Shown here: piece by piece, positions 1 to 13,348 of the stretch
How positions within the stretch are numbered: position 1 is the first letter of the stretch
Layout of the letters: the number at the start of each line of letters is the position of its first letter
Virus record (IMG/VR): IMGVR_UViG_2565956618_000002
Direction: 5' to 3' (one strand)
DNA: 13,348 nt
Source: a virus
Taxonomy: Duplodnaviria > Heunggongvirae > Uroviricota > Caudoviricetes
Translations under genes and position numbers: made by a program
Notes under the pieces: generated by a model
Seen by the model: the letters and a program-made list of their open reading frames with translations, nothing else
What the model was told of the DNA's origin: nothing
Databases searched by the model: none

Positions 1-547
1 CGCACTCATCACCGCGATAGGTCCAGGTGCAGGTGTTGGCCAGCATGATACGTCCCGGAAAAACAGCGCCGTCCGTTTCCGTCGGCGTGGACAGTACAAA
101 AGAGGCACTCACCGCGCTCAGTTCGCTGCACTGCTCAATGCGCCAGCGGCTGATCACCTCCTGCTCCGGATCGGCGTCGCTGTTTCCGTTGACGAAGTTC
201 ACCGCATCCAGAAAACGGGCGTAAACCTTACGCCTGACCACCGTTCCGCCGACCAGACTCTGCAGATCTTCCACCATCCCGGTGACCATACCGTACAGGT
301 TAGAAACCGTCAGTGTCGGACGGGCAGCACTGCCCTTGCCGTTCAGTTCAAATCCCGTCCCCTGAATGGGGTATACCTGATACTGCCGCCCCTGCCAGAT
401 AACCGGCTCACCTTTTTCGTTCTGCTCATTACAGAAAAAATAACGTTCACCACCGACCTCTGTCAGATCGATTTCCCAGAGCACCACCTGGGCTGACTGA
501 GTGAGGCGTGTCGTCTCATGATGTGTTTCCTGTGGAATATCCTGCAT
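1..547 (-). CDS. L: Minor tail protein L (tail tip assembly), N-terminal part only; gene continues past the window start
   Basis: ATG at 547..545 preceded by AGGAGG. Manual translation gives MQDIPQETHHETTRLTQSAQVVLWEIDLTEVGGERYFFCNEQNEKGEP..., near-identical to lambda gpL as recalled. Follows M as in lambda. The ORF track misses it because there is no stop inside the window. Confidence 0.9.
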   Translation of the reverse strand, partial: MQDIPQETHHETTRLTQSAQVVLWEIDLTEVGGERYFFCNEQNEKGEPVIWQGRQYQVYPIQGTGFELNGKGSAARPTLTVSNLYGMVTGMVEDLQSLVGGTVVRRKVYARFLDAVNFVNGNSDADPEQEVISRWRIEQCSELSAVSASFVLSTPTETDGAVFPGRIMLANTCTWTYRGDEC

Positions 548-556
548 CAGAGCCTC

Positions 557-886
557 CTATGCCACGACCTGTTCAAAATCTGCCGTTATGGTTACCCACA
601 GCGCCCCCACGCTTGCCGACCATTTACGACAAACCACCCTGATCGGTTTCCAGTCATAAGGTGGCGTCCACTGAAATGCACGGACGCCACCGTGCCGTTC
701 CAGAAAGGCTTTTAAAGATGGGTGGTCACATTTACGAACACGTATCGTCACGCTGTAAGTCGACAACTGGTTATTCAGTCCCGCCGCACGACGCTGTTCA
801 TAACCATCGCCCAGCTTCACTGTCACCACTTTCGGCTCTGATACCACATTCATATCCGGGCGCACTTTCCAGTGAAACGTCTCCAT
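557..886 (-). CDS. M: Minor tail protein M
   Basis: 109-aa ORF (METFHWKVRPDMNVV...WTPPYDW...FEQVVA), same length as lambda gpM and clearly homologous. Its ATG overlaps the H stop codon (TAATG). Confidence 0.92.
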   Translation of the reverse strand: METFHWKVRPDMNVVSEPKVVTVKLGDGYEQRRAAGLNNQLSTYSVTIRVRKCDHPSLKAFLERHGGVRAFQWTPPYDWKPIRVVCRKWSASVGALWVTITADFEQVVA

Positions 887-3800
887 TACCGATATGCTCC
901 ACTTAACCGACCACCATCACGGGCCTGCTGTTGCATAAAGTCCGCTGCCGCTTTTTTCCCGAGGTCATAAACCGCCTTCAGGGCAGCCGGACCTATCTGC
1001 CCGTTCGTGCCATCGTTATTGATCTCGATGTTGTACTGCGGGGCAAACATCGCCATACCTGAACCACCAATATCCGCCACAACCCCCAGCTTACCGTCAG
1101 CACCACGACGCAGTGGCAGAATGGCTTCAGGTCCCGCTTCCCCCATCACACCCGCGCCTTTTGCAAAAGCAAAAAACGTCGGACGGTTAACCACCGTGCC
1201 ACTGTAACGACTCAAATCAGCAGACTGATAAATCCCCCCATTGGCATTCAGGGAAAGGCTGCTGAGATCAAATCCCAGTACACTGCCAATCCCTTTTATC
1301 GATTTCATCATGGTTGCCTGCGCCAGGATTTTCGCCATATCTGACAGCACAGAAGAGGTGAAGGATTTGAAATTGAGTTTGCCGGTAGTGACAAAAGTTG
1401 CCAGGCCATTTCCCATGTTGCTGAAGGCTGACGAGAACACCTGTTCTGCTGTTCCTGCCGTATTATCTGCATCCACGGTAAAATTCTGAAATGCACGCAG
1501 GACTCCGTTTTTCCAGTTACCCTGCACAACTTCAAGCTGTTGCCAGTAACGGCGATTCTCATTCAGTTGTCGGTTCAGGCTCTCCGTCAGCGCCTGCTCG
1601 GCCTTTCTGTAGTCATCCGTGTTATATGTTCCTTTCTGCTCACTATCCCGCCTCAACTGCTCCAGCTGTTGCTGGTATTTCTGGCGAAGACTCAGTTGTA
1701 CCTGATATCGCTGCCGCTGCTGATCACCCATACCCACCGTGGCGATATCCAGGTCATGTTGCTGACGCTGAGCGCGCTCTTCTTCAGCCAGTTGACTGGT
1801 CAGCTGAATTGTTTTTTTCTTCAGCTCGTTGAGTGCCGTCTGTTTCTGAAGCTCCTGCTGTTTTACATCCAGCAGCGTCAGTGCCTGAATCAGTTCATCT
1901 TTACGGGCCAGCACACTCTTTTCATCTGCCGTCAGTTTTTTCCCGTCCAGGTCGCTGATGCGCTGCTGCAGAGCCAGAAGCTGTTTATGCGCTTCTGTCA
2001 TCCTTTCCGTGGCAATGCCTGCTGACTGTCTGGCAGCAGCAATCTGTCCTTCCACCTGTGCCTGTTGCTGACTGTACTGCAGCAATAACCGGGTGGCCTC
2101 ATCATTACGGGGTTCGCGTGTTTTTTTCTTACCGGATGCCAGGGCTTTCTCGTAACGTTCATTTTCACGTTGTATCGCCGCATCCCTGACAGCCTGATCG
2201 GCGTACTGCATGGAATTAATACGCGCAATTTCACGCTGATGTCGTGCTGCTTCCGTTTCATTCATCCGGTTCAGTGCAGCATTTTCAGCATTACGGCGTT
2301 TCTGTTGCTCCTGATAATTCTGCTCTGCCTGCTCTTTTGCATCCTGCAAATCCTTCTGGCGTTTTTTCTCCTGAAGCTCGTTAAGACGCTGCTGATCGTA
2401 CTCAACCTGAGAAGATGATGCCGTCCAGGGGAGTCTTTTCGCCCGCGACACTTTCTCCTGTAAAGCGGAAATCTGTTCATCCAGCGAGTCTTCACGACCA
2501 ATATTCATGGCCGCATCCCAGAAACGACTCCATAAATCAGACAGATACTTCAGCGTACTGCCCAGCGCATTGAGGTTATTATCAATATCCGCAGTACGCC
2601 GACCGGTTTCCTCTGCCAGTGCAGACATGGCTATCCGTGCCGCATCACTGGACCGCCCCTGTTCCCCAAGGACGCGTATCTGCTCAAGCTGAGTGGCAGT
2701 AAGAAAATGCAGCTCATTGTCCAGAGCCTTCGCGGCATTTACAGGATCATCCTTCAGCCGCTTAAACTGATTTATGGTATCGCTGACCGACTGGCCAACC
2801 GATCGCTCCATCTGTGCGGCAGCTCTCGCCACCATACCGATATCGTTTCCACGAAATGCACCACTCCCCACCACCTGAGCCAGCGCACCGGCTGCAGCAT
2901 GTTGCGTGATACCATTCCCGGAAATAGCACGACTGAGCGTCCACAGCTGCCCGGCAGTGACTCCGGCATAATGCCCCGTCAGCGACAACTGGCGGTTAAA
3001 TTCTTCCCCCTCCTTCTGACCATCATACCAGGCTTTACCCAGACCATAGACGGCCGCGGCAATACCGCCAATAACCCCGCCCAGCATCATGCCTTTCGGT
3101 GACATCAGTGTGTCTATCCATCCGGCACGGTTAGCCAGCGTTATCCCGGATCCCCTCAGCGCACCTAAATTGCCGCGAGCCAGTTCAACTATCAGAACGC
3201 CTATCTCCTGGCGGGCCGCTGCACTTTTCAGACCCAGCGAATGCGTGGCTTTTCCTGCCTGCTCCATTTTGCGGATATACACTTCTGCAGCACTGCTTAC
3301 CCCCAGCTGGGCAGCCTTAGCACGAAGCAACTCAGAAGAAGAAAGATTCTGGCGGGTTGCCTGCTCTTTAAGCTGACGGATAAACGCCACTTTCTGTCGG
3401 GTAGCCTCTTCCTCAGCCTGTGTAAGAACACGGGTTTTCGCAGTAACCTCAGAAATCAGCGCCAGATAATCCTGCTGACCAATCCCGCCACTGTTTCTGG
3501 CCTGTCGGATCTGCTGCTGAATACGCTGTAATTCCTGCAGCCCCGCACTGGCCTGTTTCACACTGTCAATCTGACGATAAAACGCAGCAGCCGCTTTATC
3601 CTGAGCCTCCGCCAGAGCCATGGCCTGCGCCTGTTCCTCGCGCATTTTCTGGCTCAGTGCCTCCATGCGCTGGCGGGTTTTCTCCACCTCGCGGGCCATG
3701 CGTTCATGAGCCTGTGCGTTCTTCTCCACCGTCTGCGCATGGACGGATGCGGCTGTTGCAGCCGAAGAAGCTGCCTGCGTTGTCTGCCGGGCGGCCTGAG

Positions 3801-3951
3801 TCTGACGCTCCATAAAACGCTGCATACGGGCAGAAGACCGTTCTGCATCGCTGGCTGCACCATTCAGAAGGTTTTTGATACGGGGAATTTCATTTTTAAA
3901 CTCTGCCGCATCAATCCCCAAATCAATGACCAGGTTGGCTATCTGGTCCAT
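886..3951 (-). CDS. H: Tail tape measure protein (lambda gpH-like), about 1021 aa
   Basis: Long ORF. N-terminus MDQIANLVIDLGIDAAEF resembles lambda H MAEPVGDLVVDLSLDAARF; C-terminus INNDGTNGQIGPAALKAVYD...RDGG closely matches the lambda H C-terminus; centre is Q/E/R/K-rich coiled coil. Start placed at ATG 3951 (GGAGG upstream); the track's 3981 start is a TTG extension. Confidence 0.9.
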   Translation of the reverse strand: MDQIANLVIDLGIDAAEFKNEIPRIKNLLNGAASDAERSSARMQRFMERQTQAARQTTQAASSAATAASVHAQTVEKNAQAHERMAREVEKTRQRMEALSQKMREEQAQAMALAEAQDKAAAAFYRQIDSVKQASAGLQELQRIQQQIRQARNSGGIGQQDYLALISEVTAKTRVLTQAEEEATRQKVAFIRQLKEQATRQNLSSSELLRAKAAQLGVSSAAEVYIRKMEQAGKATHSLGLKSAAARQEIGVLIVELARGNLGALRGSGITLANRAGWIDTLMSPKGMMLGGVIGGIAAAVYGLGKAWYDGQKEGEEFNRQLSLTGHYAGVTAGQLWTLSRAISGNGITQHAAAGALAQVVGSGAFRGNDIGMVARAAAQMERSVGQSVSDTINQFKRLKDDPVNAAKALDNELHFLTATQLEQIRVLGEQGRSSDAARIAMSALAEETGRRTADIDNNLNALGSTLKYLSDLWSRFWDAAMNIGREDSLDEQISALQEKVSRAKRLPWTASSSQVEYDQQRLNELQEKKRQKDLQDAKEQAEQNYQEQQKRRNAENAALNRMNETEAARHQREIARINSMQYADQAVRDAAIQRENERYEKALASGKKKTREPRNDEATRLLLQYSQQQAQVEGQIAAARQSAGIATERMTEAHKQLLALQQRISDLDGKKLTADEKSVLARKDELIQALTLLDVKQQELQKQTALNELKKKTIQLTSQLAEEERAQRQQHDLDIATVGMGDQQRQRYQVQLSLRQKYQQQLEQLRRDSEQKGTYNTDDYRKAEQALTESLNRQLNENRRYWQQLEVVQGNWKNGVLRAFQNFTVDADNTAGTAEQVFSSAFSNMGNGLATFVTTGKLNFKSFTSSVLSDMAKILAQATMMKSIKGIGSVLGFDLSSLSLNANGGIYQSADLSRYSGTVVNRPTFFAFAKGAGVMGEAGPEAILPLRRGADGKLGVVADIGGSGMAMFAPQYNIEINNDGTNGQIGPAALKAVYDLGKKAAADFMQQQARDGGRLSGAYR

Positions 3952-4650
3952 AACGCACACCTCCGGAAATACCTTCCCCAAGATGCATCAGTTCTTCGTC
4001 CGTTCGCTCCGGTATCCCGTTCTCTTCCGGTAAAAGGCTGAAATCAGCCACCGCAGCATCACTGCTACCGGACACCATTCTCACGATCAATGCCTTCAGC
4101 GAGGCAAACTGCGCATCCATCCACACATCACTGAAGCTCTGCATCCGGAAATAATCGCCCCACTCACCAAGCTCAGTGGCCGACATTTCCGACAGCATCC
4201 GCCGCCAGTCTGCCCGCCGGAACTCCCGGGCAAGCCGCATGACAAACTGCATTTCCCGCGTCAGGACTTTTCCGGCGTCAGCACCTCATGCTCCAAATCC
4301 CCGGCATTCTCAATGACTCCCATACCGCTCAGCGACAGAACCATCTCCGCCCCCGCTCCCAGGGCATCATACGACCATGTTGTAATAACGGATGCGCAAA
4401 GCGTCTCAACATCCTGAGACTGTTCCGCATTCCACAGTGAGCGGGAAACCAGCCAGGCATTGATATCCATCCCCATCCGCAGAAAAGCAATCTGTCGTTC
4501 AGCCTCCGGCAGTTCTCCCTCTTCGGCATCAAACTTTGCCGTTCGCTGCTGAACAAACGCCAGATATTCAATTCTCTGCAGCCCGGACAGCTCACTGAGC
4601 ACCACGGACTGCTTTTCATAATTAAACGTGCCCTGTTTCAGAAACATCAT
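3923..4650 (-). CDS. Tail assembly chaperone G-T fusion made by programmed -1 frameshift near the end of G
   Basis: The T-frame ORF (MQFVMRLAREFRR...) is open upstream through the G stop in the -1 frame. Reading GGA AAA GTC CTG ACG CGG GAA ATG CAG... joins the frames at the run GGAAAAG (plus-strand 4267..4273). Position and arrangement match lambda G/GT. Confidence 0.7.
4261..4650 (-). CDS. G: Tail assembly chaperone G
   Basis: MMFLKQGTFNYEKQSVVLSELSGLQRIEYLA... resembles lambda gpG (MFLKTESFEHNGVTVTLSELSALQRIEHLA...). ATG at 4650 with GGAG upstream; the track start at 4689 is a TTG extension. Confidence 0.85.
   Translation of the reverse strand: MMFLKQGTFNYEKQSVVLSELSGLQRIEYLAFVQQRTAKFDAEEGELPEAERQIAFLRMGMDINAWLVSRSLWNAEQSQDVETLCASVITTWSYDALGAGAEMVLSLSGMGVIENAGDLEHEVLTPEKS
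4267..4273 (-). other. Candidate -1 frameshift slippery site GGAAAAG
   Basis: Minus strand reads ACG CCG GAA AAG TCC TGA in the G frame; the T frame is GGA AAA GTC.... Lambda uses GGGAAAG at the equivalent place. Confidence 0.5.
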
Positions 4651-4662
4651 GTTCTCCACCTG

Positions 4663-4688
4663 CAAAAAAGCCCCGGATAACCGGGGCA
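4663..4688 (-). terminator. Candidate intrinsic terminator between V and G
   Basis: Minus strand reads GCCCCGG-TTAT-CCGGGGC followed by TTTTTTG: a 7-bp GC-rich stem, 4-nt loop and T-tract just after the V stop. Confidence 0.6.
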
Positions 4689-4707
4689 AATGATGAGTAT
4701 CGTCCTG

Positions 4708-5451
4708 TTAACCTGCGGCGCTGACAGCCACCGCAGCCACTGCCACAAAATCGCCGTCAGAAGTCATGCCCACAATGCTGACACTGCCCTGCTTCACGCC
4801 TTTCACCGTGGCCACAAGCCCGTTCAGGGTCACCGTGGCAGTCTGTGGATCTGTCGAATGCACACTGATCGCTTTGTCACTGGCTCCGTCAGGTTTTACT
4901 GTAAAGGTCAGCGTGGTGGTTGCTCCCACTTTTACACTGGCAGATGCCGGTGCCACCGTCAGCCCGGTAACGCTCACTGTTTCAGTGCCTTCCTCTGCCA
5001 GATACGGACGCCCCACACCGCTGATTTTCACTGTGCGGGTCATCACGTCTTTTGAGGCAATGGTTTTACCCAGTGAGCTCAGCCAGCCACGGAAAACATC
5101 AACAGTGCCGTTGGGATATTTGATACGAAACGCGCAGACTTCACCGGAGTCGAACAACTGAACCAGTTTTTTCTGCCCGCTGTCACCCGGACGCCAGGCC
5201 AGCGTCGCCGAAGTATCACCGACGGATTTCTGCCCCTGGGTTGTCGTTTTCCAGTCTGCATCTTCATCATCGAGATAAGTGTCATCTTCTGCATCAGCGG
5301 TCATTTCGCCAGGTTGCAGATCCTTCACCATCGCAAGACGCAGCCAGTCAGTGTCCGATAAAGGGTTCGCAAACGCATCGCCCTTGCCGGTGTACATCCA
5401 GAACGTCGTTCCCGCACCTTTCGTTTTTGCCAGTGGATTTGGTGTGGTCAT
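4708..5451 (-). CDS. V: Major tail protein V with C-terminal Ig-like domain
   Basis: MTTPNPLAKTKGAGTTFWMYTGKGDAFANPLSDTDW...LDDEDADW...YPNGTVDVFRGW... closely matches lambda gpV. ATG at 5451 with AGGAGGT 5 nt upstream; the track start at 5457 is GTG. Confidence 0.93.
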   Translation of the reverse strand: MTTPNPLAKTKGAGTTFWMYTGKGDAFANPLSDTDWLRLAMVKDLQPGEMTADAEDDTYLDDEDADWKTTTQGQKSVGDTSATLAWRPGDSGQKKLVQLFDSGEVCAFRIKYPNGTVDVFRGWLSSLGKTIASKDVMTRTVKISGVGRPYLAEEGTETVSVTGLTVAPASASVKVGATTTLTFTVKPDGASDKAISVHSTDPQTATVTLNGLVATVKGVKQGSVSIVGMTSDGDFVAVAAVAVSAAG

Positions 5452-5462
5452 TGCCACCTCCT

Positions 5463-5876
5463 TTAATTCGTGTACGTGATCTGGTACGTGATTTCCGCCA
5501 TCGCCCAGGTGGCCATCTCATTATCACGTTGATAGTTAAAACCGAGAGGGATCAGGGTGTCGATGAGTCCGGAAAGTGCCGGTATATCATTCAGGGCCGG
5601 GAAAATGGTGCTCTCCATCCACATATCCAGCTCTGAATCCGGTGCCTGTGCCCGGATGAAGACAGCAATATGCAGAACAGCCTGCCAGTCATCTTCATCC
5701 GTCATTTTTCCGGTGTACTGAGCATCACTCAGCCACACCGCCACGGCAGGCAGTTCCTGCGCATCAATAAATGCCGGAAGCCCGTCAAAAAACGTGGCGC
5801 TGTCTCCACACTGTTCCCGAAGGCGTGCCAGTACGGCCTGGCGGATTTGTGTATGTCGGTTCATCGGGTCAGCCAT
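5463..5876 (-). CDS. U: Tail terminator protein U
   Basis: ...ATFFDGLPAFIDAQELPAVAVWLSDAQYTG...PDSELDMWMES...DIPALSGLI...ITYQITY matches lambda gpU. ATG at 5876 (GAGG upstream); an alternative ATG at 5864 overlaps the Z stop as ATGA. Confidence 0.9.
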   Translation of the reverse strand: MADPMNRHTQIRQAVLARLREQCGDSATFFDGLPAFIDAQELPAVAVWLSDAQYTGKMTDEDDWQAVLHIAVFIRAQAPDSELDMWMESTIFPALNDIPALSGLIDTLIPLGFNYQRDNEMATWAMAEITYQITYTN

Positions 5877-6439
5877 AACCTCAGTTGTTGTTTCAGTGCA
5901 TACCCCAGCTGTTTCGGCATTTCCGCAGCAATAATGCGGTCGCGGGCATCTTCAAATGCCTGTGTCAGCGGTCCGGACAGCGGGACTTTCACCACATCAA
6001 TGGGGTAACGATTTTTGCCATCAATACGCCGCATCACATGCCAGCGACCATTCGCCAGTTGCTGAATAAACGCATCCCGGAAAAGATATTTACCCACCTT
6101 CAGCACACTGCCACGGTACTGCAGTTTTCCACCACGCCGGGCCAGTCTGACCCGGGCTGTCCCCAGCTTAATAGCGGGCAGATTGCCCCGGTTAACGCGG
6201 ATCCTGGCCGTCATTTTTCCTGACGGACTGGCTTTAAACACCCGGACACGCTGACGTACCAGTTTCAGGGGGATCCCTTTCACCTGGTTATCTCCCGCAA
6301 CGGTATTCCCGGCAACCTGCCGGGTGGCGACCGAGACCGCTTTCTGTGCCACACGGTTTATCGCCCATGCGCTGGCCTGTGGCACCATACGGGTATCAAG
6401 GCTGTTCAGATTACGGATGGCATTCTCAAGCCCCTTCAT
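5861..6439 (-). CDS. Z: Minor tail protein Z-like (tail completion)
   Basis: 192 aa, the same length as lambda gpZ, and in the lambda Z position between FII-like and U. ATG at 6439 with AGAGGTG upstream. Confidence 0.7.
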   Translation of the reverse strand: MKGLENAIRNLNSLDTRMVPQASAWAINRVAQKAVSVATRQVAGNTVAGDNQVKGIPLKLVRQRVRVFKASPSGKMTARIRVNRGNLPAIKLGTARVRLARRGGKLQYRGSVLKVGKYLFRDAFIQQLANGRWHVMRRIDGKNRYPIDVVKVPLSGPLTQAFEDARDRIIAAEMPKQLGYALKQQLRLWLTR

Positions 6440-6450
6440 CCCACACCTCT

Positions 6451-6726
6451 TTACTCAATAAAGATCATTGGCTTACCGTTAAAACGTTCATGCCGTGTGA
6501 CCGTCCATTGTTGTCCGTCATAAACAACGCGATCCCCGCGCCGTGGGCGGTATCCCGAAGAAAACACCACCAGAGAGACCGCAGGTCCGGACAGAGCATT
6601 CAGCTCTGCCAGTGTTTCTCCCGGGATCACAGTCATATCGACATCATTAATCGAGGCTGTCTTTCCCATCTTTCTAACCGTGATAGCATCCATACGCGCT
6701 GCCAGCCGGGAAAAGGGATCAGACAT
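6451..6726 (-). CDS. Head-tail joining protein (lambda FII-like)
   Basis: 91 aa. MSDPFSRLAARMDAITVRKMGKTASI... and ...RRGDRVVYDGQQWTV resemble lambda FII (MADFDNLFDAAIARADETIRGYMG..., ...RRGDTLTIGEENFWV) as recalled. Sits between head genes and Z. Confidence 0.65.
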   Translation of the reverse strand: MSDPFSRLAARMDAITVRKMGKTASINDVDMTVIPGETLAELNALSGPAVSLVVFSSGYRPRRGDRVVYDGQQWTVTRHERFNGKPMIFIE

Positions 6727-7042
6727 TGAGTTTTACCGGCACTTCTTCTGCACTGGTTCCGGCATCTGCCCAGACAACCCCGACCAGCGGATCAGAGCCG
6801 CTGTTAGTCAGCTGAACTTTTCCGGACTTCAGATAAACCTTCTTACCCGTTTTCATGTCATCCGTTTTCAGCTTAGGCAGCATAAACACACCTTCGGTCA
6901 TGCCGTCGCCTGTTTCACCCTGTGGAATATCGGTCAGCGCCACCGCAAAAACATCGCCCACCTGCACCAGATCTCCGCTGCTGATGGCTGCACTGGCAAC
7001 AATCGCCACCGTTTTTCCTTCTTCTACAAAATTCTTTGCCAT
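6719..7042 (-). CDS. Small head-associated protein (DUF2190-like), function unclear
   Basis: 108 aa from ATG 7042 (MAKNFVEEGKT...), GGAG upstream. Immediately downstream of the capsid gene, where such small proteins commonly sit in HK97-like head modules. Assignment by position and composition only. Confidence 0.55.
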   Translation of the reverse strand: MAKNFVEEGKTVAIVASAAISSGDLVQVGDVFAVALTDIPQGETGDGMTEGVFMLPKLKTDDMKTGKKVYLKSGKVQLTNSGSDPLVGVVWADAGTSAEEVPVKLNV

Positions 7043-7084
7043 AACTGTCTCCGCACAGCCCCGTTCAGGGGCTGATTTCAGGTA

Positions 7085-7106
7085 CAAAAAAAGCCCTTAC
7101 GGGCCA
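7085..7106 (-). terminator. Candidate intrinsic terminator or attenuator after the capsid gene
   Basis: Minus strand reads GCCCGTAAGGGC followed by TTTTTTTGTAC, about 25 nt after the capsid stop (7129). Short 4-bp stem, so weak. Confidence 0.45.
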
Positions 7107-7128
7107 TCAGAGTTGTTGTCTGCGACGT

Positions 7129-9087
7129 TTACGCCGTACATTTCACCAGACCGCGGTGATCAACTGGCGCGACACCGGCGTCAATACGCACTTTCGTTGT
7201 CACGCCATCCACACTGAAGCCCTCCATCTGATCAATATATGGCGTATCCACACCGTTGAGATAAGCCACTTCAATCGTATCGGAGCCTTTTGACGCAGCC
7301 AGGTAGAAGGTGGTCTGGCTGTTATCATCAAGACGAGGCTCTGCAATAACGGTCGCAAAATCTTTCACCGGGTTAATAATACCGGCGTTAATGTCAGCCC
7401 CCTTGACACTTGAGGAGCGAATGACCTGGTTAGCAACAGACTCCATCGCCGTCGGTACCAGTACGAACGCAGGACGAATATTCAGATGACGCTCCCCCTC
7501 TTTCTGAACGCGCATCAACTGGCGGGCTTTATCCAGCGATGCCACGTCCATTGCAGCGCTCTCCAGTACGTTTGCATGTTTCGCTTTATCGAACAGACTT
7601 ACATTATCTGTGGAGATTTTCGGGTTAGACGTCAGAATGGCATAAACCAGATCGGCAATAGTGGATTTCGCCGCACGGCCCAGTTTCATCGGGACATCGG
7701 TCAGCATATTCAGATCATCATTGATAATGGCCTGACGGGTGATACTGAACAGCTCGCCATAGGTCGCCAGTGCAATAGTGGCCTGTTTATCTCCGGTGGT
7801 GACGTATTTATATTCCGCCCCTTCACGCACCTGACGCAGAGCACTGAAGCCCCCCATACCCACACGATGGGCAATTTTAAAATCAGACAACTGACCTTTC
7901 CGCGTCCACTGTTCATAGGTTTCAGGGGCATCTTCCCAGCCCTGCAGAATGGCTTTGTTCGCAACATCCAGCAGAATATTACCGAAGTCAGACGTACTGT
8001 GTGTGAACGCCGCACCGACCATCTGCATCGGGTTATAACCGGAAACCCCAATACCCCGTTCAGTTAGTGACATACGGGCATATTCACGCAGGGTCATCCC
8101 GTTGTAGACATTATCACGTTCGGTTTTTTCAAATCCGGCACGCGCCATCAGCGCCTGGCGGATCCCGTCCCCCACAAAATTACCGTTACCGGCATAAATA
8201 TGAGCCGGGGTATTTTTATTGGATGGCGTGGACTCGCGCCCCATCTCGTTCAACAGCTTTTCACGGGCCTGCTCCAGCGAACATTCAGGATCGGCAAGAC
8301 ACTGGGCCTGCAGCATCTGATAACGCCCGCCAAACATGGCAAACAGATCATTAATACCGTTTACACGCGCTTTTTGCTCTGCCAGTACCTGCGCACGGAT
8401 ACTGTTTTCATCCACCACGGGTGCTGCTGCCTGCACTGGCGTCCGGGAGGCTGCAGGTTCATCATCCTGTACGCGTGGAGCACTGTTGCGTGGCGGAGTA
8501 ATCATGTTTCGAATGGATTCCGGCATCTTTTTAAATTCCTCTGTACGTTTTGACTGAATACATGCCATTGCCTTAACGGCTGGTGTCACCTGATCAGCAA
8601 ATCCCTGTGCCAGACATTCGGCACCGGACATCCAGGTCTCATCCGCCAGCATGGCAGCAATTTCATCGGTGGTTTTCCCGGTTTTCTGTGCATAAGCGGG
8701 TAACAGAACCGCCTCAACTTTATCGAGCAGGTCGGCATAGGTGCGCATGTCCTCCGCATCACCGCCCGTAAAGCCAAATGGTTTATGAATCATCATGAAG
8801 GAGTTTTCCGGCATAATGACCGGGTTTCCCACCATCGCAATGACCGACGCCATTGACGCCGCCACACCGTCGACATAAACGGTAATGGACGCACCATGTG
8901 TTTTCAGTGCATTAAAAATGGCGATGCCTTCAAAGACATCGCCACCCGGTGAATTAATATGGAGATTAATGTGGGTGATATCGCCCAGTGCATTCAGATC
9001 ACTGATAAACTGCTTCGCTGTAACACCCCAGAAACCAATCTCGTCATAAATATAAATATCCGCGTCACTCTGGTGACCTGCCTGCAT
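7129..9087 (-). CDS. Prohead protease (ClpP-like) fused in frame to an HK97-fold major capsid protein
   Basis: N-terminal part has ClpP-like motifs (IYIYDEIGFWGVTAKQFISDL, INSPGGDVFEGIAIFNA, GVAASMASVIAMVG, MIHKP); C-terminal ~340 aa has major-capsid character. Start tentatively ATG 9087 (MQAGHQSDADIYIY), about 652 aa; weak RBS, so the start is uncertain. Confidence 0.8.
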   Translation of the reverse strand: MQAGHQSDADIYIYDEIGFWGVTAKQFISDLNALGDITHINLHINSPGGDVFEGIAIFNALKTHGASITVYVDGVAASMASVIAMVGNPVIMPENSFMMIHKPFGFTGGDAEDMRTYADLLDKVEAVLLPAYAQKTGKTTDEIAAMLADETWMSGAECLAQGFADQVTPAVKAMACIQSKRTEEFKKMPESIRNMITPPRNSAPRVQDDEPAASRTPVQAAAPVVDENSIRAQVLAEQKARVNGINDLFAMFGGRYQMLQAQCLADPECSLEQAREKLLNEMGRESTPSNKNTPAHIYAGNGNFVGDGIRQALMARAGFEKTERDNVYNGMTLREYARMSLTERGIGVSGYNPMQMVGAAFTHSTSDFGNILLDVANKAILQGWEDAPETYEQWTRKGQLSDFKIAHRVGMGGFSALRQVREGAEYKYVTTGDKQATIALATYGELFSITRQAIINDDLNMLTDVPMKLGRAAKSTIADLVYAILTSNPKISTDNVSLFDKAKHANVLESAAMDVASLDKARQLMRVQKEGERHLNIRPAFVLVPTAMESVANQVIRSSSVKGADINAGIINPVKDFATVIAEPRLDDNSQTTFYLAASKGSDTIEVAYLNGVDTPYIDQMEGFSVDGVTTKVRIDAGVAPVDHRGLVKCTA

Positions 9088-9100
9088 CCTGAACCAGGAA

Positions 9101-10609
9101 TTATTCTTCGGACTGGTCGTCGGTGTGCTGCGGCTCCTGTCGTTTCGTTGCGGCACTGCTGCCTCCTTTATCACTGGCCGGATCGGTATCAAATACCAGA
9201 TCCAGCTTGCGGTTTTCATCAATTTCGGCCTTGCGCCGACGTTTGACATCATCCGGATTACGACCACCTGCACGTACCCAGTCTGATTCTGTCGCCGCTC
9301 CACCACGAATCTGAATTTTCCAGGCCTCAGCCTCCTTAACAGGGTCAATCCACGGCATCACCGGTCCGGAATACACCGCGGTATACAGTGAAGATCGGTC
9401 CAGATCGCGGGGTAGCCTGATAACACCGGATGCCACAGCCTGTTTCAGCCAGGCACGGTACATCGGGCGGGTGACGGCACCAATAAACCAGTCCTGCAGG
9501 ATCAGGTAGCCATCAGTAGATTCAACCAGCTCCTGACGCTGGGCGCTGTAAGTGCCGTTATAGTTGCGCGCTGTACTGGAAAAACTCAGACGACTGCCCG
9601 CAGCCACGGCACGCAACTGACCATTACGAAAAGTTTCAAGGTTAGGATTGGGGCGATCCGACTTCACCATTCCGATTTCTTCGCCGGGTTTCAGATCGTC
9701 GTAAATAATGCCTGGCTGAATGGTAAGCTCGCGTTCATTCTCCTTGCTGTCATTACCATCCGTTTCATAGCTCTGTCCGTCGCCTTTCCGGATGTACATC
9801 CCCAGAGCAGCGGCGATCCTTGCTGCAGTCAGCTCAGAATCTTCATACTCTTTCAGAGCACTGAGGCGGATCAGCACACCGGACAACAAAGACGTCCCGC
9901 GCATCTGGTGCAGACGGCGAACAAATTTAAGATGCAGCATTCGCTCTGCATCCACTTCTTTGGTTTCCATCTGCCGCCCGGATACGGGACGGCTTTTATA
10001 CACCAGATATTTTTCGGGACGCCCCCAGTCATCAACAAACACGCCCTGATTCAGCCTGTTGCTCTCATCACTGGTCATGGGAATAAAGTCCGGCTCGAGC
10101 GCCTCCAGCCAGAAATGAACACCGGCAGAAGGCGTCAAGCTGTTTATGCGCCCGGAAACCATCTGGGCAAACACCTCACCATCGCGCAGCCAGGTACGCA
10201 GCATCAGACGTTCCAGCATCGGACGGGTAAACTGCCCGGTGACTTCCGGACTGACAGACCATTCACTCCATCGGGTGCGTATCTCCGCTGCCAGATCACG
10301 GGCAATGGCCCCATTGCGTAATACCGGATGTGGCTCGACAATAATCCCGTTTTTCCCCACCACCCGTTCTTCCAGCTTGTCAAATACACCAATGACCAGA
10401 TCGTGGTTGTTATCAAGGTAACGGGCCTGCTCACGTAACGACACGGCCCCGTACTGGCTTAACTGGTCGGCAGTTCGGTTCTCCCGTCGGGCTTTGTGTG
10501 TCCGCGTCGTTTTTACGGCCTCATAAGCCTGAATCACCGCACGGGAACGCAGCCTTGCCGCTTTCCATCCTGGTGAAAAAACGCCAATCACATCATCAAG
10601 AATTGCCAT
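9101..10609 (-). CDS. Portal protein
   Basis: About 503-aa ORF between the gpW-like gene and the protease/capsid gene. ATG at 10609 overlaps the W stop (TGATG). Not similar to lambda gpB by eye, so the call rests on position and size. Confidence 0.8.
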   Translation of the reverse strand: MAILDDVIGVFSPGWKAARLRSRAVIQAYEAVKTTRTHKARRENRTADQLSQYGAVSLREQARYLDNNHDLVIGVFDKLEERVVGKNGIIVEPHPVLRNGAIARDLAAEIRTRWSEWSVSPEVTGQFTRPMLERLMLRTWLRDGEVFAQMVSGRINSLTPSAGVHFWLEALEPDFIPMTSDESNRLNQGVFVDDWGRPEKYLVYKSRPVSGRQMETKEVDAERMLHLKFVRRLHQMRGTSLLSGVLIRLSALKEYEDSELTAARIAAALGMYIRKGDGQSYETDGNDSKENERELTIQPGIIYDDLKPGEEIGMVKSDRPNPNLETFRNGQLRAVAAGSRLSFSSTARNYNGTYSAQRQELVESTDGYLILQDWFIGAVTRPMYRAWLKQAVASGVIRLPRDLDRSSLYTAVYSGPVMPWIDPVKEAEAWKIQIRGGAATESDWVRAGGRNPDDVKRRRKAEIDENRKLDLVFDTDPASDKGGSSAATKRQEPQHTDDQSEE

Positions 10610-10821
10610 CAGAACCTCGCCAGCCGGTACCCGGGATGCCCCCGTCGTCGTGTAATCAGAGCCGCAAGGCGGCGCTCCCACTCCTGCCGTCCCTGCCGGA
10701 TCTCAGATAAGTTTTCCATGGTCATCTGCTGACCATTAAAAGTGACGGATTTTCCGTCCAGCACCGCCATTTCAGCTTCCGTATAACGCTGAATCATGGC
10801 TTCAATATCATTCTGATTCAT
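10609..10821 (-). CDS. W: Head completion / head-tail joining protein, lambda gpW-like
   Basis: 70 aa from ATG 10821 (GGAGG 6 nt upstream). C-terminus ...ITRRRGHPGYRLARF resembles lambda gpW ...TQRRRGPAGFYV. Its ATG overlaps the terminase stop (ATGA). Confidence 0.75.
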   Translation of the reverse strand: MNQNDIEAMIQRYTEAEMAVLDGKSVTFNGQQMTMENLSEIRQGRQEWERRLAALITRRRGHPGYRLARF

Positions 10822-12650
10822 AACCATCCTCCGGAAGTCAGCCAGGGGTTAACATCGTCAGTTACTGTTTTCTTCCGTTTTTGTTTTTTAACAGGCGTGG
10901 ATACCGGCTCCGGTGAGGGTGACGGTTCGGTACTGTCCGGGACACACTCCAGCCAGGTTTCCCGGCTCGCCCACTCCGGTGCATCCGGCCAGCGGATCTT
11001 TTCGTATCCATGCAGAATGACCAGCGCCTCGGCATACACCATCAGGTCAAAAGCTTCGTTGGCACCGCGACCCGGCTTACTCCATTTCCCGTCACTGCTC
11101 CGCTCTTCATACGTCAGTTCGTCGTAAAACCAGCTCCCCAGCCAGTCAGGGAAATGCACATAGCCTGGACCTGGCGAGTCACGCCATAACGCGTTATTCA
11201 CCCGGTCTTTCAGGGCATCCGTCTGAAGAAGCCAGAGCGGCACATCACCTGCGGCCTGCGCCCGGCGGCCCGTTCGTCCGGTGTTATCAGGGAATGTACG
11301 GCTGATCAGTTTTGCGCGCCGGATGCTGTCGCCCTTAAACAGGTAAATACGTTTACCAAGGCCATCACGACGGCAACGACGCCAGAATTTATAGGCATTA
11401 TCAGTGACCCCGTCTTCACCGCCGGAATCCACCGCCATTGCCATCAGTCGCATTTGTTGAGAAGGATCGGAGGCCAGCGGCCAGCTTTTATGAAAAACAT
11501 CCGTCAGCAGGACATCCCAGTCTTCCGGATAGCTGGCCGGATCAATTCGCTGGCTCTCCCCGTCGCAGTCACTGCGCAATGACTGCGTGATGTTGTAACG
11601 ATCAATAATCCAGCGTTCGCCACGGCTGCCATAGCCCGTTACCTGAACCACAAAACGGCGATGACGTCCCGCCTGCACATCCACTGTCGCCACAAGGAAA
11701 TTAACGCCATCCGGAACACTGCGGGAAGGAACTGGCTCTGCCCGCTGCTCAAGCAGTTCACTTTTTCGTTGCTCCATGCTGGCACGAGGAAGATAAGGCA
11801 ATCCCCAGTCGGTGTTGATAACCGCCCTGAGTGTTTCTTCGCTTCCTGTCGCTTCATACTCCTGTTCTGCAGTCAGTAATTTGTAAACCAGTTGCGCCCA
11901 GGTCTGATACGCAGCAGCTGGCCCTTCCATCCAGAAACTGGCGATACGGGAGCGGCGCGGTTCACCGGAAACGTTGCCGTTACGATCAATGACCTGACCT
12001 TCACGTAACCAGACTCCTGCACTATTGAGCTCACGCTTTTTCTCCGCAGTGATAATGCCGCTGCAGTGCGGGCAAAGTAGATACGCCGCCTCACTGGCTT
12101 TAAAGGGATCCGGTTCATTACGGTAGCCGGTCATGGCATCCATAGCTGGCTGAAAATATTCACCGCAGTGCGGACATGGCCAGTACCAGCGGCGGCGGTC
12201 ACCACGATTGTAAAGGGAAAGAATACCAGTCGTCGGTGGCGCTTCATGAGGCGACTTACGTCGCCATTTGCTGTCGCAGATGTCACGTCCCGGCGAGCTC
12301 TCCACCAGAGTCATCCCGGCGGACATAAATGTGGTGGTACGTTTTGAGGCCAGGGAGAAACCATCACCCTCGCTGTCGATATTCTCCGGAAAACGGTCGT
12401 AATCGGTTAAGGCGACAAACCGGTAATCCGACGACGACATAATGTTGACCGAGGGCCAACCAATTTTAAGGAACGAGCCATCCCTGAACGTCTTATCATG
12501 GACATTATTGTCGTTACGACGTGGACTCATTCTTTTCTTTACCGCCGCACTGCTTCTGAACGTTCTGTCGAGGCGCTTTTTAGAATGCTCGCGGGCCTTA
12601 TCTGATGCGCCGCGCGATAAATGCACTCTATCTTGTGCGATAAATGGCAT
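10818..12650 (-). CDS. Large terminase subunit (lambda gpA family), apparently 5'-truncated and possibly inactive
   Basis: 610-aa ORF with strong gpA-like regions (WPCPHCGEYF zinc-finger-like motif as lambda ACPHCGEE; VALTDYDRF near the lambda Walker B VAGYDE). No P-loop/Walker A motif is present, and similarity starts around lambda residue ~95-125. The frame is closed 30 bp below the invertase stop. Confidence 0.85.
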   Translation of the reverse strand: MPFIAQDRVHLSRGASDKAREHSKKRLDRTFRSSAAVKKRMSPRRNDNNVHDKTFRDGSFLKIGWPSVNIMSSSDYRFVALTDYDRFPENIDSEGDGFSLASKRTTTFMSAGMTLVESSPGRDICDSKWRRKSPHEAPPTTGILSLYNRGDRRRWYWPCPHCGEYFQPAMDAMTGYRNEPDPFKASEAAYLLCPHCSGIITAEKKRELNSAGVWLREGQVIDRNGNVSGEPRRSRIASFWMEGPAAAYQTWAQLVYKLLTAEQEYEATGSEETLRAVINTDWGLPYLPRASMEQRKSELLEQRAEPVPSRSVPDGVNFLVATVDVQAGRHRRFVVQVTGYGSRGERWIIDRYNITQSLRSDCDGESQRIDPASYPEDWDVLLTDVFHKSWPLASDPSQQMRLMAMAVDSGGEDGVTDNAYKFWRRCRRDGLGKRIYLFKGDSIRRAKLISRTFPDNTGRTGRRAQAAGDVPLWLLQTDALKDRVNNALWRDSPGPGYVHFPDWLGSWFYDELTYEERSSDGKWSKPGRGANEAFDLMVYAEALVILHGYEKIRWPDAPEWASRETWLECVPDSTEPSPSPEPVSTPVKKQKRKKTVTDDVNPWLTSGGWL

Positions 12651-12680
12651 CCACGCGGCGTTTCATTATTTGAAAAAGAA

Positions 12681-13253
12681 TTACATTTCAGGTTGCGTTA
12701 TGACAGTCCCAACAGGGTGATAGCGGTAGATCGTTGACAGTCCAATATCATAGATAATTGCCAGCCGCTTTCTGTCATACCCTTTCTGGAGCAATCTTGC
12801 GATCTGCTCATGCTGCTCCTTCGTCAGTTTCGGGCGACGTCCTCCAACTCTTCCTTGTGCTCGCGCAGCAGCCAGTCCTGCCAGCGTGCGCTCAACTATC
12901 AGTTCACGCTCCATTTCTGCCAGTGCACCCATCATATGAAAAAAGAACCTTCCCATCGGAGTGCTGGTATCGATTGAATCCGTCAGACTGCGAAAATTGA
13001 CACCTTTTGCGCGTAGCTCTTCTGTGAGAGCAATGAGGTGTTTCATTCTTCTACCCAACCGATCCAGCTTCCAGACCACCAATGTATCCCCTCTTTTAAG
13101 GCACTTTAAAGCGCGTTTCAGGCCTGGTCGTTCCGACTTGGTTCCGCTCATTTTGTCCTCAAAAATCTGTTCACATCCTGCGCACATTAATGCATTGCGT
13201 TGCAAATCTGTGTTTTGGTCATTTGTTGACACACGTATGTAGCCAATCAGCAT
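12681..13253 (-). CDS. pin: Serine DNA invertase of the Pin/Gin/Hin/Cin family
   Basis: MLIGYIRVSTNDQNTDLQRNALMCAGCEQIFEDK...GDTLVVWKLDRLGR...GRFFFHMMGALAEMERELIVERTLAGLAAARAQGR.GGRRPKLT... is almost co-linear with e14 Pin and Salmonella Hin as recalled; catalytic Ser in YIRVST. ATG at 13253; the track's extension to 13343 starts at a non-ATG codon and is not used. Confidence 0.93.
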   Translation of the reverse strand: MLIGYIRVSTNDQNTDLQRNALMCAGCEQIFEDKMSGTKSERPGLKRALKCLKRGDTLVVWKLDRLGRRMKHLIALTEELRAKGVNFRSLTDSIDTSTPMGRFFFHMMGALAEMERELIVERTLAGLAAARAQGRVGGRRPKLTKEQHEQIARLLQKGYDRKRLAIIYDIGLSTIYRYHPVGTVITQPEM

Positions 13254-13307
13254 TAAAAATACTCCCTTTTGAGTGGTTAAAGTACTGAGATAATGTGGGG
13301 AGGATTT

Positions 13308-13333
13308 GAGAGATAAACGTTGGTTTGGGGGAA
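13308..13333 (-). other. Candidate invertase crossover site (hix/gix-like), about 55 bp upstream of pin
   Basis: Minus strand reads TTCCCCCAAACCAACGTTTATCTCTC; it matches hixL (TTCTTGAAAACCAAGGTTTTTGATAA) at 15 of 26 positions, including the AAACC-AA-(G)GTTT core. The right half is diverged. Confidence 0.3.
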
Positions 13334-13348
13334 GGCTCTGCATTGCCT

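What the first reader, a model, noticed from the sequence alone, without database searches (positions are those of the whole stretch)
12440..13348. Pin-type invertase directly abuts a large terminase that lacks its N-terminal ATPase start
Lambda synteny places lysis genes, cos and the small terminase upstream of gene A. Here a Pin-family invertase stops 30 bp before a terminase ORF whose first ~40 residues show no Walker A motif, with no small terminase in between. In known systems these invertases sit beside tail-fibre invertible segments at the opposite end of the late region. The simplest reading is a deletion or rearrangement scar joining the tail-fibre end of one lambdoid element to a decapitated packaging gene of another, making this a defective prophage. 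The aligned Walker B region reads DYDR where lambda has GYDE, which may indicate further decay, but that alignment was done by eye.
Basis: partly seen in the sequence, partly recalled or inferred. Interest (0 to 1): 0.6.

Follow-up and report, generated by a model that had tools for sequence, protein, structure and literature searches.

The report
Transposable prophage inserted into terminase gene
The invertase sits next to a headless terminase because a Mu-like (BcepMu-type) transposable phage jumped into the large-terminase gene of a resident lambda-like prophage. This is an ordinary gene-disrupting insertion, not a deletion scar or a new kind of terminase.

Summary
A 190-aa Gin/Pin-type invertase (12681-13253, minus strand) stops 30 bp before a 610-aa terminase ORF (10818-12650, minus strand). 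That ORF has no Walker A motif, and no small terminase lies between the two genes.

The cause is neither a deletion nor a join between two lambdoid elements. Window 1-12603 is 100% identical to an intact prophage in E. coli ATCC 25922, whose TerL is 699 aa. From the TG at 12603 onward the window is 99-100% identical to one terminus of a ~38-kb BcepMu-like transposable myovirus prophage. In other E. coli genomes that prophage splits many different genes and carries 6-bp target duplications.

The 610-aa ORF is a chimera: 16 codons read out of the phage terminus, fused to TerL residues 106-699. The predicted missing piece is residues 1-107 ending in DK, with the Walker A motif GPARTGKT, stopped by the element's terminal TGA. 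A protein of exactly that kind exists in the same strain (E. coli 907391, ESC92355.1) on another contig.

The invertase is in its normal place, beside the invertible tail-fibre segment of the inserted phage. The "DYDR" motif is a conserved signature of this terminase subfamily and occurs in isolated phages, so it is not decay. The lambdoid prophage is probably packaging-defective. Ordinary; low interest.

The parts
10818..12602 (-). 3' part of the lambdoid prophage's large terminase gene (TerL residues 106-699 of the intact 699-aa protein). It holds the Walker B region and the complete nuclease domain.
   Evidence: Zero mismatches over 7004 nt against E. coli ATCC 25922 up to window position 12603. 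ORF residues 17-610 equal intact residues 106-699. Pfam GpA_ATPase (profile 66-247) and GpA_nuclease.
12597..12602 (.). CTTATC: the copy of the 6-bp target-site duplication on this side of the insertion. It encodes D-K on the minus strand.
   Evidence: 6-bp flanking duplications in 4 of 4 complete copies of the element (GCTATC, TTTAGC, CTTTAT, TCAATG). The D-K codons occur both in this ORF and at the end of the N-terminal fragment ESC92355.1 from the same strain.
12603..13348 (.). Terminal 746 bp of a BcepMu-like transposable prophage, starting at the terminal TG and running to the contig end.
   Evidence: 99-100% identical to this end of the element in more than 1300 complete E. coli genomes. 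Nine sampled copies abut nine different flanking sequences, all diverging exactly before the TG. The full element was examined in strains N61 and 23070.
12616..12645 (+). Two GATAAAT boxes (12616-12622 and 12639-12645), at +14 and +37 from the terminus. They are putative transposase-binding sites.
   Evidence: The same boxes sit in the same register at the opposite terminus of the element in strain N61. The first box is also present there in strain 23070. That the transposase binds them is inferred.
10818..12650 (-). Chimeric 610-aa ORF, annotated ESC89464.1 'phage terminase large subunit'. It has 16 codons (MPFIAQDRVHLSRGAS) read from the element's terminal 48 bp, followed by TerL residues 106-699.
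   Evidence: There is no Walker A. Upstream of the ATG there is only a GTGG directly abutting it.
12681..13253 (-). Gin/Pin-type DNA invertase gene of the inserted phage (190 aa, Ser9 in MLIGYIRVSTNDQ). A good ribosome-binding site, AAGGGAG, lies upstream.
   Evidence: Pfam Resolvase plus HTH_7. 76% identity to Mu Gin structures 4m6f/3uj3. The same protein, WP_000904922.1, occupies this position in all copies examined.
13308..13333 (.). 26-bp invertase crossover site, GAGAGATAAACG-TT-GGTTTGGGGGAA. It marks the proximal boundary of the invertible tail-fibre segment.
   Evidence: In strain N61 the partner site, in inverted orientation, has the same inner half-site and central TT. The 229-nt inverted repeat (96% complementary, arms 1165 nt apart) starts at the position equivalent to window 13317.
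13317..13348 (.). First 32 nt of the inverted repeat of the invertible segment. The contig, and so the window, ends here.
   Evidence: The window is the whole 13348-bp contig KI531065.1 of GCA_000488315.1.

Best explanation
A ~38-kb BcepMu-like transposable myovirus integrated by DDE transposition into codons 106-107 of the large-terminase gene of a resident cdtI/Tritos-type lambdoid prophage in E. coli 907391. Its machinery comprises a Tn552/BcepMu-type rve transposase, a MuB-like ATPase, Gam and Mor. The insertion duplicated 6 bp (CTTATC).

The window is a short-read contig. It runs from the lambdoid tail genes through the 3' part of terL, crosses the insertion junction at 12602/12603, and continues 746 bp into the inserted phage. 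It stops at the inverted repeat of that phage's invertible tail-fibre segment.

The 'Pin' gene is the inserted phage's own Gin-type invertase. It flips the adjacent tail-fibre segment at the 26-bp site 13308-13333 and its distal partner, which switches host range. It has nothing to do with the terminase.

The 610-aa 'terminase' ORF is an accidental in-frame fusion of 16 codons from the phage terminus to TerL residues 106-699. It lacks Walker A and the N-terminal region, so it cannot power packaging. The 5' part of terL (residues 1-107, stopped by the element's terminal TGA) lies at the other end of the insertion.

What is shown: the junction position, the identity of both partners, the element's 6-bp duplications and many insertion sites, the missing N-terminus, and the presence of the complementary N-terminal fragment in the same strain.

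What is inferred: that the N-terminal fragment abuts the opposite (mor-side) terminus of one single copy of the element, that the small terminase and lysis genes sit just beyond it as in ATCC 25922, and that the lambdoid prophage is packaging-dead.
For: **Junction**
- Window 10600-12603 is 100% identical to intact terL in ATCC 25922 and many other genomes.
- Window 1-12603 is 100.0% identical over its full length to ATCC 25922, with 0 mismatches in the 7004 nt compared directly.
- Window ~12599-13348 is 99-100% identical to a different locus in more than 1300 complete E. coli genomes. No complete genome carries the junction itself.
- A three-way alignment shows the switch at ...CTTATC|TGATGCG.

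**Nature of the inserted element**
- In strains N61 and 23070 it is 38.0 and 37.6 kb. It splits a cysteine-hydrolase gene in one and fadL in the other.
- It encodes an rve transposase, an ExeA/MuB-like ATPase, Gam, gp16, Mor, a DUF935 portal, Mu F and G homologues, sheath, tube, baseplate, invertible tail fibres and the invertase.
- Its transposase is 68.5-69.4% identical to those of BcepMu and phiE255, and 98.6% identical to that of Escherichia phage PhiKM.

**Transposition signature**
- Nine copies have nine different flanks, all breaking before the same TG.
- 6-bp duplications flank 4 of 4 complete copies.
- The termini read TGAT...ATCA. In strain N61, GATAAAT boxes sit in matching register at both ends; in strain 23070 only the first box recurs at the opposite end.

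**The missing half**
- The predicted product is TerL 1-107 followed by TGA.
- That exact 107-aa sequence exists in NCBI. Its version starting at M23, ESC92355.1, comes from E. coli 907391 on a 112-kb contig.
- The window ORF is ESC89464.1 from the same strain, on the 13348-bp contig.

**Truncation**
- Pfam GpA_ATPase matches only profile positions 66-247.
- Walker A GPARTGKT at residues 72-79 is present only in the intact protein.
- Every sampled full-length homologue has 99-124 residues before the break column.

**Invertase in its normal context**
-.
Against: - The other junction could not be read at the nucleotide level.
- Both termini of the element begin with TGAT. The TGA stop after K107 therefore does not show which terminus abuts the N-terminal fragment.
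- NCBI also holds contig-end partial TerL fragments of 92-144 aa. A fragment ending at residue 107 is thus not unique proof on its own.
- Loss of packaging by the lambdoid prophage was not tested.
Confidence: 0.9

Rival explanations
1. Transposition-associated rearrangement rather than a simple insertion. Replicative transposition of the Mu-like phage would have produced an inversion, a deletion or two copies. The two halves of terL would then not flank one single prophage copy.
For: Some E. coli genomes carry up to 5 places matching this element end, so replicative spread does occur. Both termini start with TGAT, so the protein-level evidence cannot tell which terminus abuts the N-terminal fragment.
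Against: The D-K codons (GATAAG) are kept in direct orientation on both halves, as expected for a simple insertion with a 6-bp duplication. The window contig assembles straight through the junction and the invertase gene. This argues that the end is single-copy in this genome, which is an inference.
Confidence: 0.05
2. One reading: a deletion or illegitimate-recombination scar that joins the tail-fibre end of one lambdoid prophage to a decapitated terminase of another.
For: An invertase directly abuts a truncated terL with no small terminase between them.
Against: The break is exactly at the TG terminus of a transposable phage that has the same terminus at nine other loci. The invertase-bearing element is a BcepMu-like myovirus, not a lambdoid phage. 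The 5' terL fragment, with the duplicated D-K codons, is still in the genome. A deletion would have removed it and would leave no duplication.
Confidence: 0.02
3. Assembly chimera: the contig wrongly joins two unrelated loci.
For: It is a 2013 short-read draft contig that ends inside a repeat.
Against: The two partners share no repeat at the join, only one coincidental base. The join falls precisely at a biological terminus. The complementary fragment ends at the predicted codon. The same contig is recorded in 2 samples.
Confidence: 0.02
4. A naturally short terminase subfamily that starts at this position and is functional.
For: The ORF is open for 610 codons and has a complete nuclease domain.
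Against: Its first 16 residues are encoded by the phage terminus. Homology to every relative starts at ORF residue ~15-19, and those relatives have about 100-125 residues before that point, including an invariant Walker A lysine. The identical sequence is full-length (699 aa) in ATCC 25922 and in phages Tritos and cdtI.
Confidence: 0.01

Closest known systems
Burkholderia phage BcepMu and phiE255 (Bcepmuvirus); closest isolates are Escherichia phage PhiKM and Klebsiella phage KP12
   Same: The transposase is 68.5-69.4% identical to BcepMu and phiE255, 98.6% to PhiKM and 93.5% to KP12. The termini are TG...CA, which the literature describes as typical of BcepMu-related elements with an rve transposase related to Tn552 (PMC2628397). 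Early and late gene blocks are divergently transcribed, with Mor, gp16, Gam and Mu-type head genes. Inducible Bcepmuvirus phages from human-gut Pseudomonadota have been reported (PMC12629997).
   Different: This is an enterobacterial lineage. It carries a Gin-type invertase and an invertible tail-fibre segment at one terminus. Whether BcepMu itself has these was not checked here.
Phage Mu insertion mutagenesis, and the Mu Gin / G-segment system
   Same: Insertion at many sites disrupts the target gene and leaves a short target duplication. The invertase is 76% identical to Gin, sits at the phage end and flips tail-fibre genes.
   Different: The duplication is 6 bp, whereas Mu makes 5 bp (own knowledge). 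The transposase is of the Tn552/BcepMu type, not MuA. The genome layout differs from Mu.
Lambda gpA-family large terminase, as in phages cdtI, Tritos, HannyBb and mEp460
   Same: The 3' 594 codons are identical to the intact 699-aa protein. That protein is 99.4-99.9% identical to TerL of cdtI, Tritos and HannyBb. It is 24% identical to lambda gpA across both domains.
   Different: The copy in the window has lost residues 1-105, including Walker A. The subfamily as a whole has T-D-Y-D-R where lambda has the hhhhDE Walker B.
e14 Pin, P1 Cin and Salmonella Hin invertases
   Same: Same serine-invertase family and domain layout. The Hin DNA-binding domain is matched in PDB.
   Different: No direct sequence comparison with Pin or Cin was run here. 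The closest solved relative is Mu Gin.

Membership tests
Gin/Pin/Hin/Cin DNA invertases (small serine recombinases) | N-terminal serine-recombinase catalytic domain with the nucleophilic serine near residue 9-10, plus a C-terminal HTH_7 domain | tested here: met
   Pfam Resolvase E=1e-50 and HTH_7 E=1.6e-12. The sequence begins MLIGYIRVSTNDQ, which includes Ser9. 138/181 residues are identical to Mu Gin 4m6f.
Gin/Pin/Hin/Cin DNA invertases (small serine recombinases) | Sits beside an invertible segment bounded by inverted repeats that carry 26-bp crossover sites with a central dinucleotide | tested here: met
   The site GAGAGATAAACG-TT-GGTTTGGGGGAA lies at 13308-13333. In the complete copy in strain N61 there is a partner site in inverted orientation and a 229-nt inverted repeat flanking tail-fibre genes.
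Gin/Pin/Hin/Cin DNA invertases (small serine recombinases) | Fis-dependent recombinational enhancer within the 5' part of the invertase gene | not tested
   No scan for Fis sites was run.
gpA-family large terminase (functional packaging ATPase-nuclease) | N-terminal ATPase domain with a Walker A P-loop | tested here: not met
   The 610-aa ORF contains no [AG]xxxxGK[ST] motif. GPARTGKT (residues 72-79) occurs only in the intact 699-aa protein. Pfam GpA_ATPase is matched only from profile position 66.
gpA-family large terminase (functional packaging ATPase-nuclease) | Walker B / catalytic carboxylate region | tested here: inconclusive
   The region is present (LTDYDRFP) and matches the subfamily consensus in 38 homologues and in isolated phages. 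It is not a canonical hhhhDE motif. Which residue is catalytic cannot be decided from sequence.
gpA-family large terminase (functional packaging ATPase-nuclease) | C-terminal nuclease domain | tested here: met
   Pfam GpA_nuclease covers profile positions 1-294 of 294, E=1.3e-86.
gpA-family large terminase (functional packaging ATPase-nuclease) | Adjacent small-terminase partner gene upstream | tested here: not met
   None is present in the window. In ATCC 25922 and in phages Tritos and mEp460 the small subunit (DUF1441 / 'terminase small subunit') lies directly upstream of the intact gene. In this strain it should lie beyond the insertion.
BcepMu-like transposable phage (Bcepmuvirus-like) | TG...CA termini, with the same terminus found at many unrelated chromosomal sites | tested here: met
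   Nine different flanks all break before the same TG. The opposite ends read ...ATCA.
BcepMu-like transposable phage (Bcepmuvirus-like) | Short direct target-site duplication | tested here: met
   A 6-bp duplication flanks 4 of 4 complete copies. For the window's own insertion it is supported only at the protein level, by D-K codons in both halves.
BcepMu-like transposable phage (Bcepmuvirus-like) | rve (DDE) transposase related to BcepMu's, with a MuB-like ATPase, Mor and Gam | tested here: met
   Met in the complete copies in strains N61 and 23070. These genes lie outside the window, so their presence in strain 907391 is inferred.

The most novel reading that the evidence does not exclude
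The pin transcript may read out of the phage terminus, since no terminator-like hairpin lies between the pin stop and the terminus. It could then drive expression of the Walker-A-less TerL chimera. That protein would keep the nuclease domain and the oligomerisation surfaces, and it might poison the packaging motors of related lambdoid phages. On this reading the insertion would act as an inter-phage weapon or exclusion device rather than as a neutral knockout.
Probability: 0.03. Interest if true: 0.5.

Novelty: already known. Interest (0 to 1): 0.12.

Why it matters
It matters mainly as a cautionary example for annotation. The ORF is deposited as 'phage terminase large subunit' (ESC89464.1), but it is a chimera created at the junction of a transposable prophage. 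In a draft contig, the adjacency of an invertase and a terminase looks like exotic synteny.

Biologically, it shows one temperate phage knocking out the packaging gene of another in a clinical-type E. coli background. This is an expected consequence of near-random Mu-type transposition.

Two side observations could be useful to specialists. This E. coli BcepMu-like lineage makes a consistent 6-bp duplication. The terminase subfamily has a non-canonical but conserved T-D-Y-D-R Walker B region.

Tried and rejected
1. I looked for any complete E. coli genome that carries the junction. None of 5426 does.
2. I tried to fetch the 112-kb contig that carries the N-terminal fragment (ESC92355.1).
3. 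I tried to scan genome contigs for the predicted opposite junction.
4. An exact scan of genome contigs for the element terminus gave only a 1268-bp contig in a 'Moraxella osloensis' assembly. This is probably contamination and is uninformative.
5. I considered that the C before the TG might belong to the element, which would mean a 5-bp duplication. I rejected this because nine flanks show C, T, G or A at that position.
6. I considered that DYDR reflects decay. I rejected this.
7. Literature searches for the BcepMu target-duplication length and for phage PhiKM returned nothing usable.
8. The promoter and terminator scan of 12400-13348 found nothing.
Full report
**What is in the window.** All relevant genes are on the minus strand. 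In the direction of transcription they are:
- a 190-aa serine recombinase (12681-13253);
- after a 30-bp gap, a 610-aa ORF (10818-12650);
- a gpW-like gene, a lambda-family portal, a ClpP-protease/major-capsid fusion, head-tail genes, the major tail protein, the G/T chaperones and a tape-measure protein.

Pfam assigns Resolvase plus HTH_7 to the recombinase. To the 610-aa ORF it assigns a complete GpA_nuclease domain, but GpA_ATPase only over profile positions 66-247, beginning at ORF residue 16.

**Where the window comes from.** The 610-aa protein occurs on exactly one contig in the public collection, KI531065.1 of GCA_000488315.1. That contig is 13348 bp long, so the window is the entire contig. 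The protein is ESC89464.1, 'phage terminase large subunit [Escherichia coli 907391]'.

**The junction.**
- Megablast of 12200-13348 against 5426 complete E. coli genomes found no genome that covers the whole query. More than 1300 genomes match positions ~12599-13348 at 99% or better, and the neighbouring genes differ from genome to genome: irp2, fadL, yeiB, dcuC, lplA, upaG and others.
- The terminase side, 10600-12603, matches an intact 'phage terminase large subunit' at 100% in ATCC 25922 and hundreds of other genomes.
- Window 1-12603 is 100.0% identical to ATCC 25922 over its full length. There are no mismatches in the 7004 nt I compared directly.
- A three-way alignment puts the switch at ...GGGCCTTATC|TGATGCGCC..., between 12602 and 12603. 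One further base matches by coincidence.

**The intact gene.** In ATCC 25922 the terminase is 699 aa. It is directly preceded by a DUF1441 protein, then by lysis genes further upstream, which is the lambda-like order. The DUF1441 protein occupies the position annotated as small terminase in phages Tritos and mEp460. Residues 17-610 of the window ORF equal residues 106-699 of the intact protein. The Walker A motif GPARTGKT, at residues 72-79, is the only P-loop match in the intact protein, and the window ORF lacks it.

**What was inserted.** Two complete copies were examined.

| Strain | Length | Gene split |
|---|---|---|
| N61 | 38,007 bp | cysteine hydrolase |
| 23070 | 37,566 bp | fadL |

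The element encodes:
- an rve-type transposase, an ExeA/MuB-like ATPase, Gam, gp16 and Mor;
- a DUF935 portal and Mu F and G homologues;
- sheath, tube and baseplate proteins;
- an invertible tail-fibre segment and the invertase, about 80 bp from one terminus.

Its transposase is 68.5-69.4% identical to those of Burkholderia phages BcepMu and phiE255. It is 98.6% identical to that of Escherichia phage PhiKM. The literature describes BcepMu-related elements as having TG...CA termini and an rve transposase related to that of Tn552 (PMC2628397). Inducible Bcepmuvirus phages have been recovered from human-gut isolates (PMC12629997).

**Signature of transposition.**
- Nine copies, including the window, all diverge from their nine different flanks immediately before the same TG. 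The preceding base is C, T, G or A, so it belongs to the target and not to the element.
- In four complete copies the element is flanked by perfect 6-bp direct repeats: GCTATC, TTTAGC, CTTTAT and TCAATG.
- Both termini start with TGAT. In strain N61, GATAAAT boxes sit at +14 and +37 at both ends. In strain 23070 only the +14 box recurs at the opposite end. In the window the boxes are at 12616-12622 and 12639-12645.

**The other half of terL.** A 6-bp duplication of CTTATC makes a clear prediction. The 5' fragment should read through D106-K107 and stop at once on the element's terminal TGA, giving a 107-aa product. An exact-sequence look-up found that 107-aa protein in NCBI. It also found the version that starts at M23: ESC92355.1, HMPREF1593_04239, from E. 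coli 907391, on a 112-kb contig. That is the same strain as the window. Both halves of the gene, each with the duplicated D-K codons, are therefore present in one genome. This is what an insertion predicts and what a deletion excludes.

Three caveats apply.
- I could not read that contig.
- Both termini begin with TGAT, so the stop codon does not show which terminus abuts the fragment.
- NCBI also holds contig-end TerL fragments of 92-144 aa.

The window contig assembles through the junction and through pin. This argues that this end of the element is single-copy in the strain, which favours a simple insertion.

**The invertase.** It is 76% identical to Mu Gin (4m6f, 3uj3). In strain N61 a 229-nt inverted repeat (96% complementary, arms 1165 nt apart) brackets alternative tail-fibre and assembly genes right next to it. 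The repeat begins at the position equivalent to window 13317. The proximal crossover site is GAGAGATAAACG-TT-GGTTTGGGGGAA at 13308-13333. The distal site shares the inner half-site and the central TT. The contig ends 29 nt past the crossover centre, which is typical of a short-read assembly breaking at an inverted repeat. The invertase is therefore exactly where such invertases normally sit, but in a myovirus that has landed inside the lambdoid prophage.

**DYDR.**
- LTDYDR is invariant in phages Tritos (TerL 99.9% identical to the intact protein), mEp460 and mEp213.
- Across 38 homologues of 35-46% identity the pattern is h-h-h-[T/S]-[D/E]-Y-D-R-[M/F]-P. D174 is invariant and D172 is D or E.
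- In that larger alignment lambda D178-E179 fall on T171-D172.
- The motif is a subfamily signature, not decay.

**No natural short form.** A search of 1.84 billion representative proteins found 2032 relatives at E up to 1e-10. Homology to the window ORF consistently starts at its residue ~15-19. In 39 sampled full-length proteins, 99-124 residues precede the break column, and the Walker A lysine is invariant among the 38 homologues (lambda gpA has tyrosine at that column).

**Expression of the chimera.** The ATG at 12650 has only a GTGG directly abutting it, and no terminator-like hairpin separates it from pin. Read-through transcription is possible, but efficient translation looks unlikely. 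This was not tested.

**Verdict.** The mechanism is different from the one proposed. It is a recent simple insertion of a known kind of transposable phage, and the lambdoid sequence is otherwise identical to an intact prophage. Nothing here is new in kind.

Noticed in passing
window 12597-12645; L004 518-38524; L005 510-38075; L016; L017: The E. coli BcepMu-like prophage lineage makes 6-bp target duplications in 4 of 4 complete copies, whereas Mu makes 5 bp. Its termini read TGAT...ATCA, with GATAAAT boxes at +14 and +37 at both ends in strain N61. More than 1300 complete E. coli genomes carry a copy of this end at 99% identity or better, with up to 5 places per genome.
   Followed up: partly
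window 12380-12410 (codons for LTDYDRFP); intact TerL residues 168-177: This gpA-type terminase subfamily has no canonical hhhhDE Walker B. The conserved pattern is h-h-h-[T/S]-[D/E]-Y-D-R-[M/F]-P, with D174 invariant in 38 distant homologues. Depending on the alignment, lambda E179 falls on D172 or on R175. Which residue is the catalytic carboxylate is an open question.
   Followed up: partly
window 13317-13348: The contig ends 29 nt past the centre of the crossover site, inside the 229-nt inverted repeat of the invertible tail-fibre segment. The window edge is therefore an assembly break, not a biological boundary.
   Followed up: yes
L018 (CAXORL010000041.1, 'Moraxella osloensis' assembly) 999-1043: An exact copy of the 45-nt element terminus sits in a 1268-bp contig of a Moraxella assembly, with the flank GAAGAA|TGATG. 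It is probably enterobacterial contamination of that assembly.
   Followed up: no
window 7129-9156 (minus strand): A ClpP-like prohead protease and a major capsid protein are encoded as one 675-aa fusion ORF, as annotated in ATCC 25922 and in cdtI-type phages. The mechanical ORF list extends it to 739 aa, starting from a TTG.
   Followed up: no
window 3923-4650 (minus strand): The tail assembly chaperone pair (Phage_TAC_2 of 129 aa and Phage_tail_T of 109 aa) is in the lambda G/T arrangement. The G-like ORF ends ...CCG GAA AAG TCC TGA. No search for a slippery site for the usual -1 frameshift was completed.
   Followed up: no
NCBI protein clusters: Many TerL fragments of this prophage family are deposited as 'partial' proteins, with N-terminal pieces of 92-144 aa and C-terminal pieces of 540-616 aa. 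They mostly reflect contig breaks where lambdoid prophages share sequence. Fragment length alone therefore does not show a disruption.
   Followed up: partly
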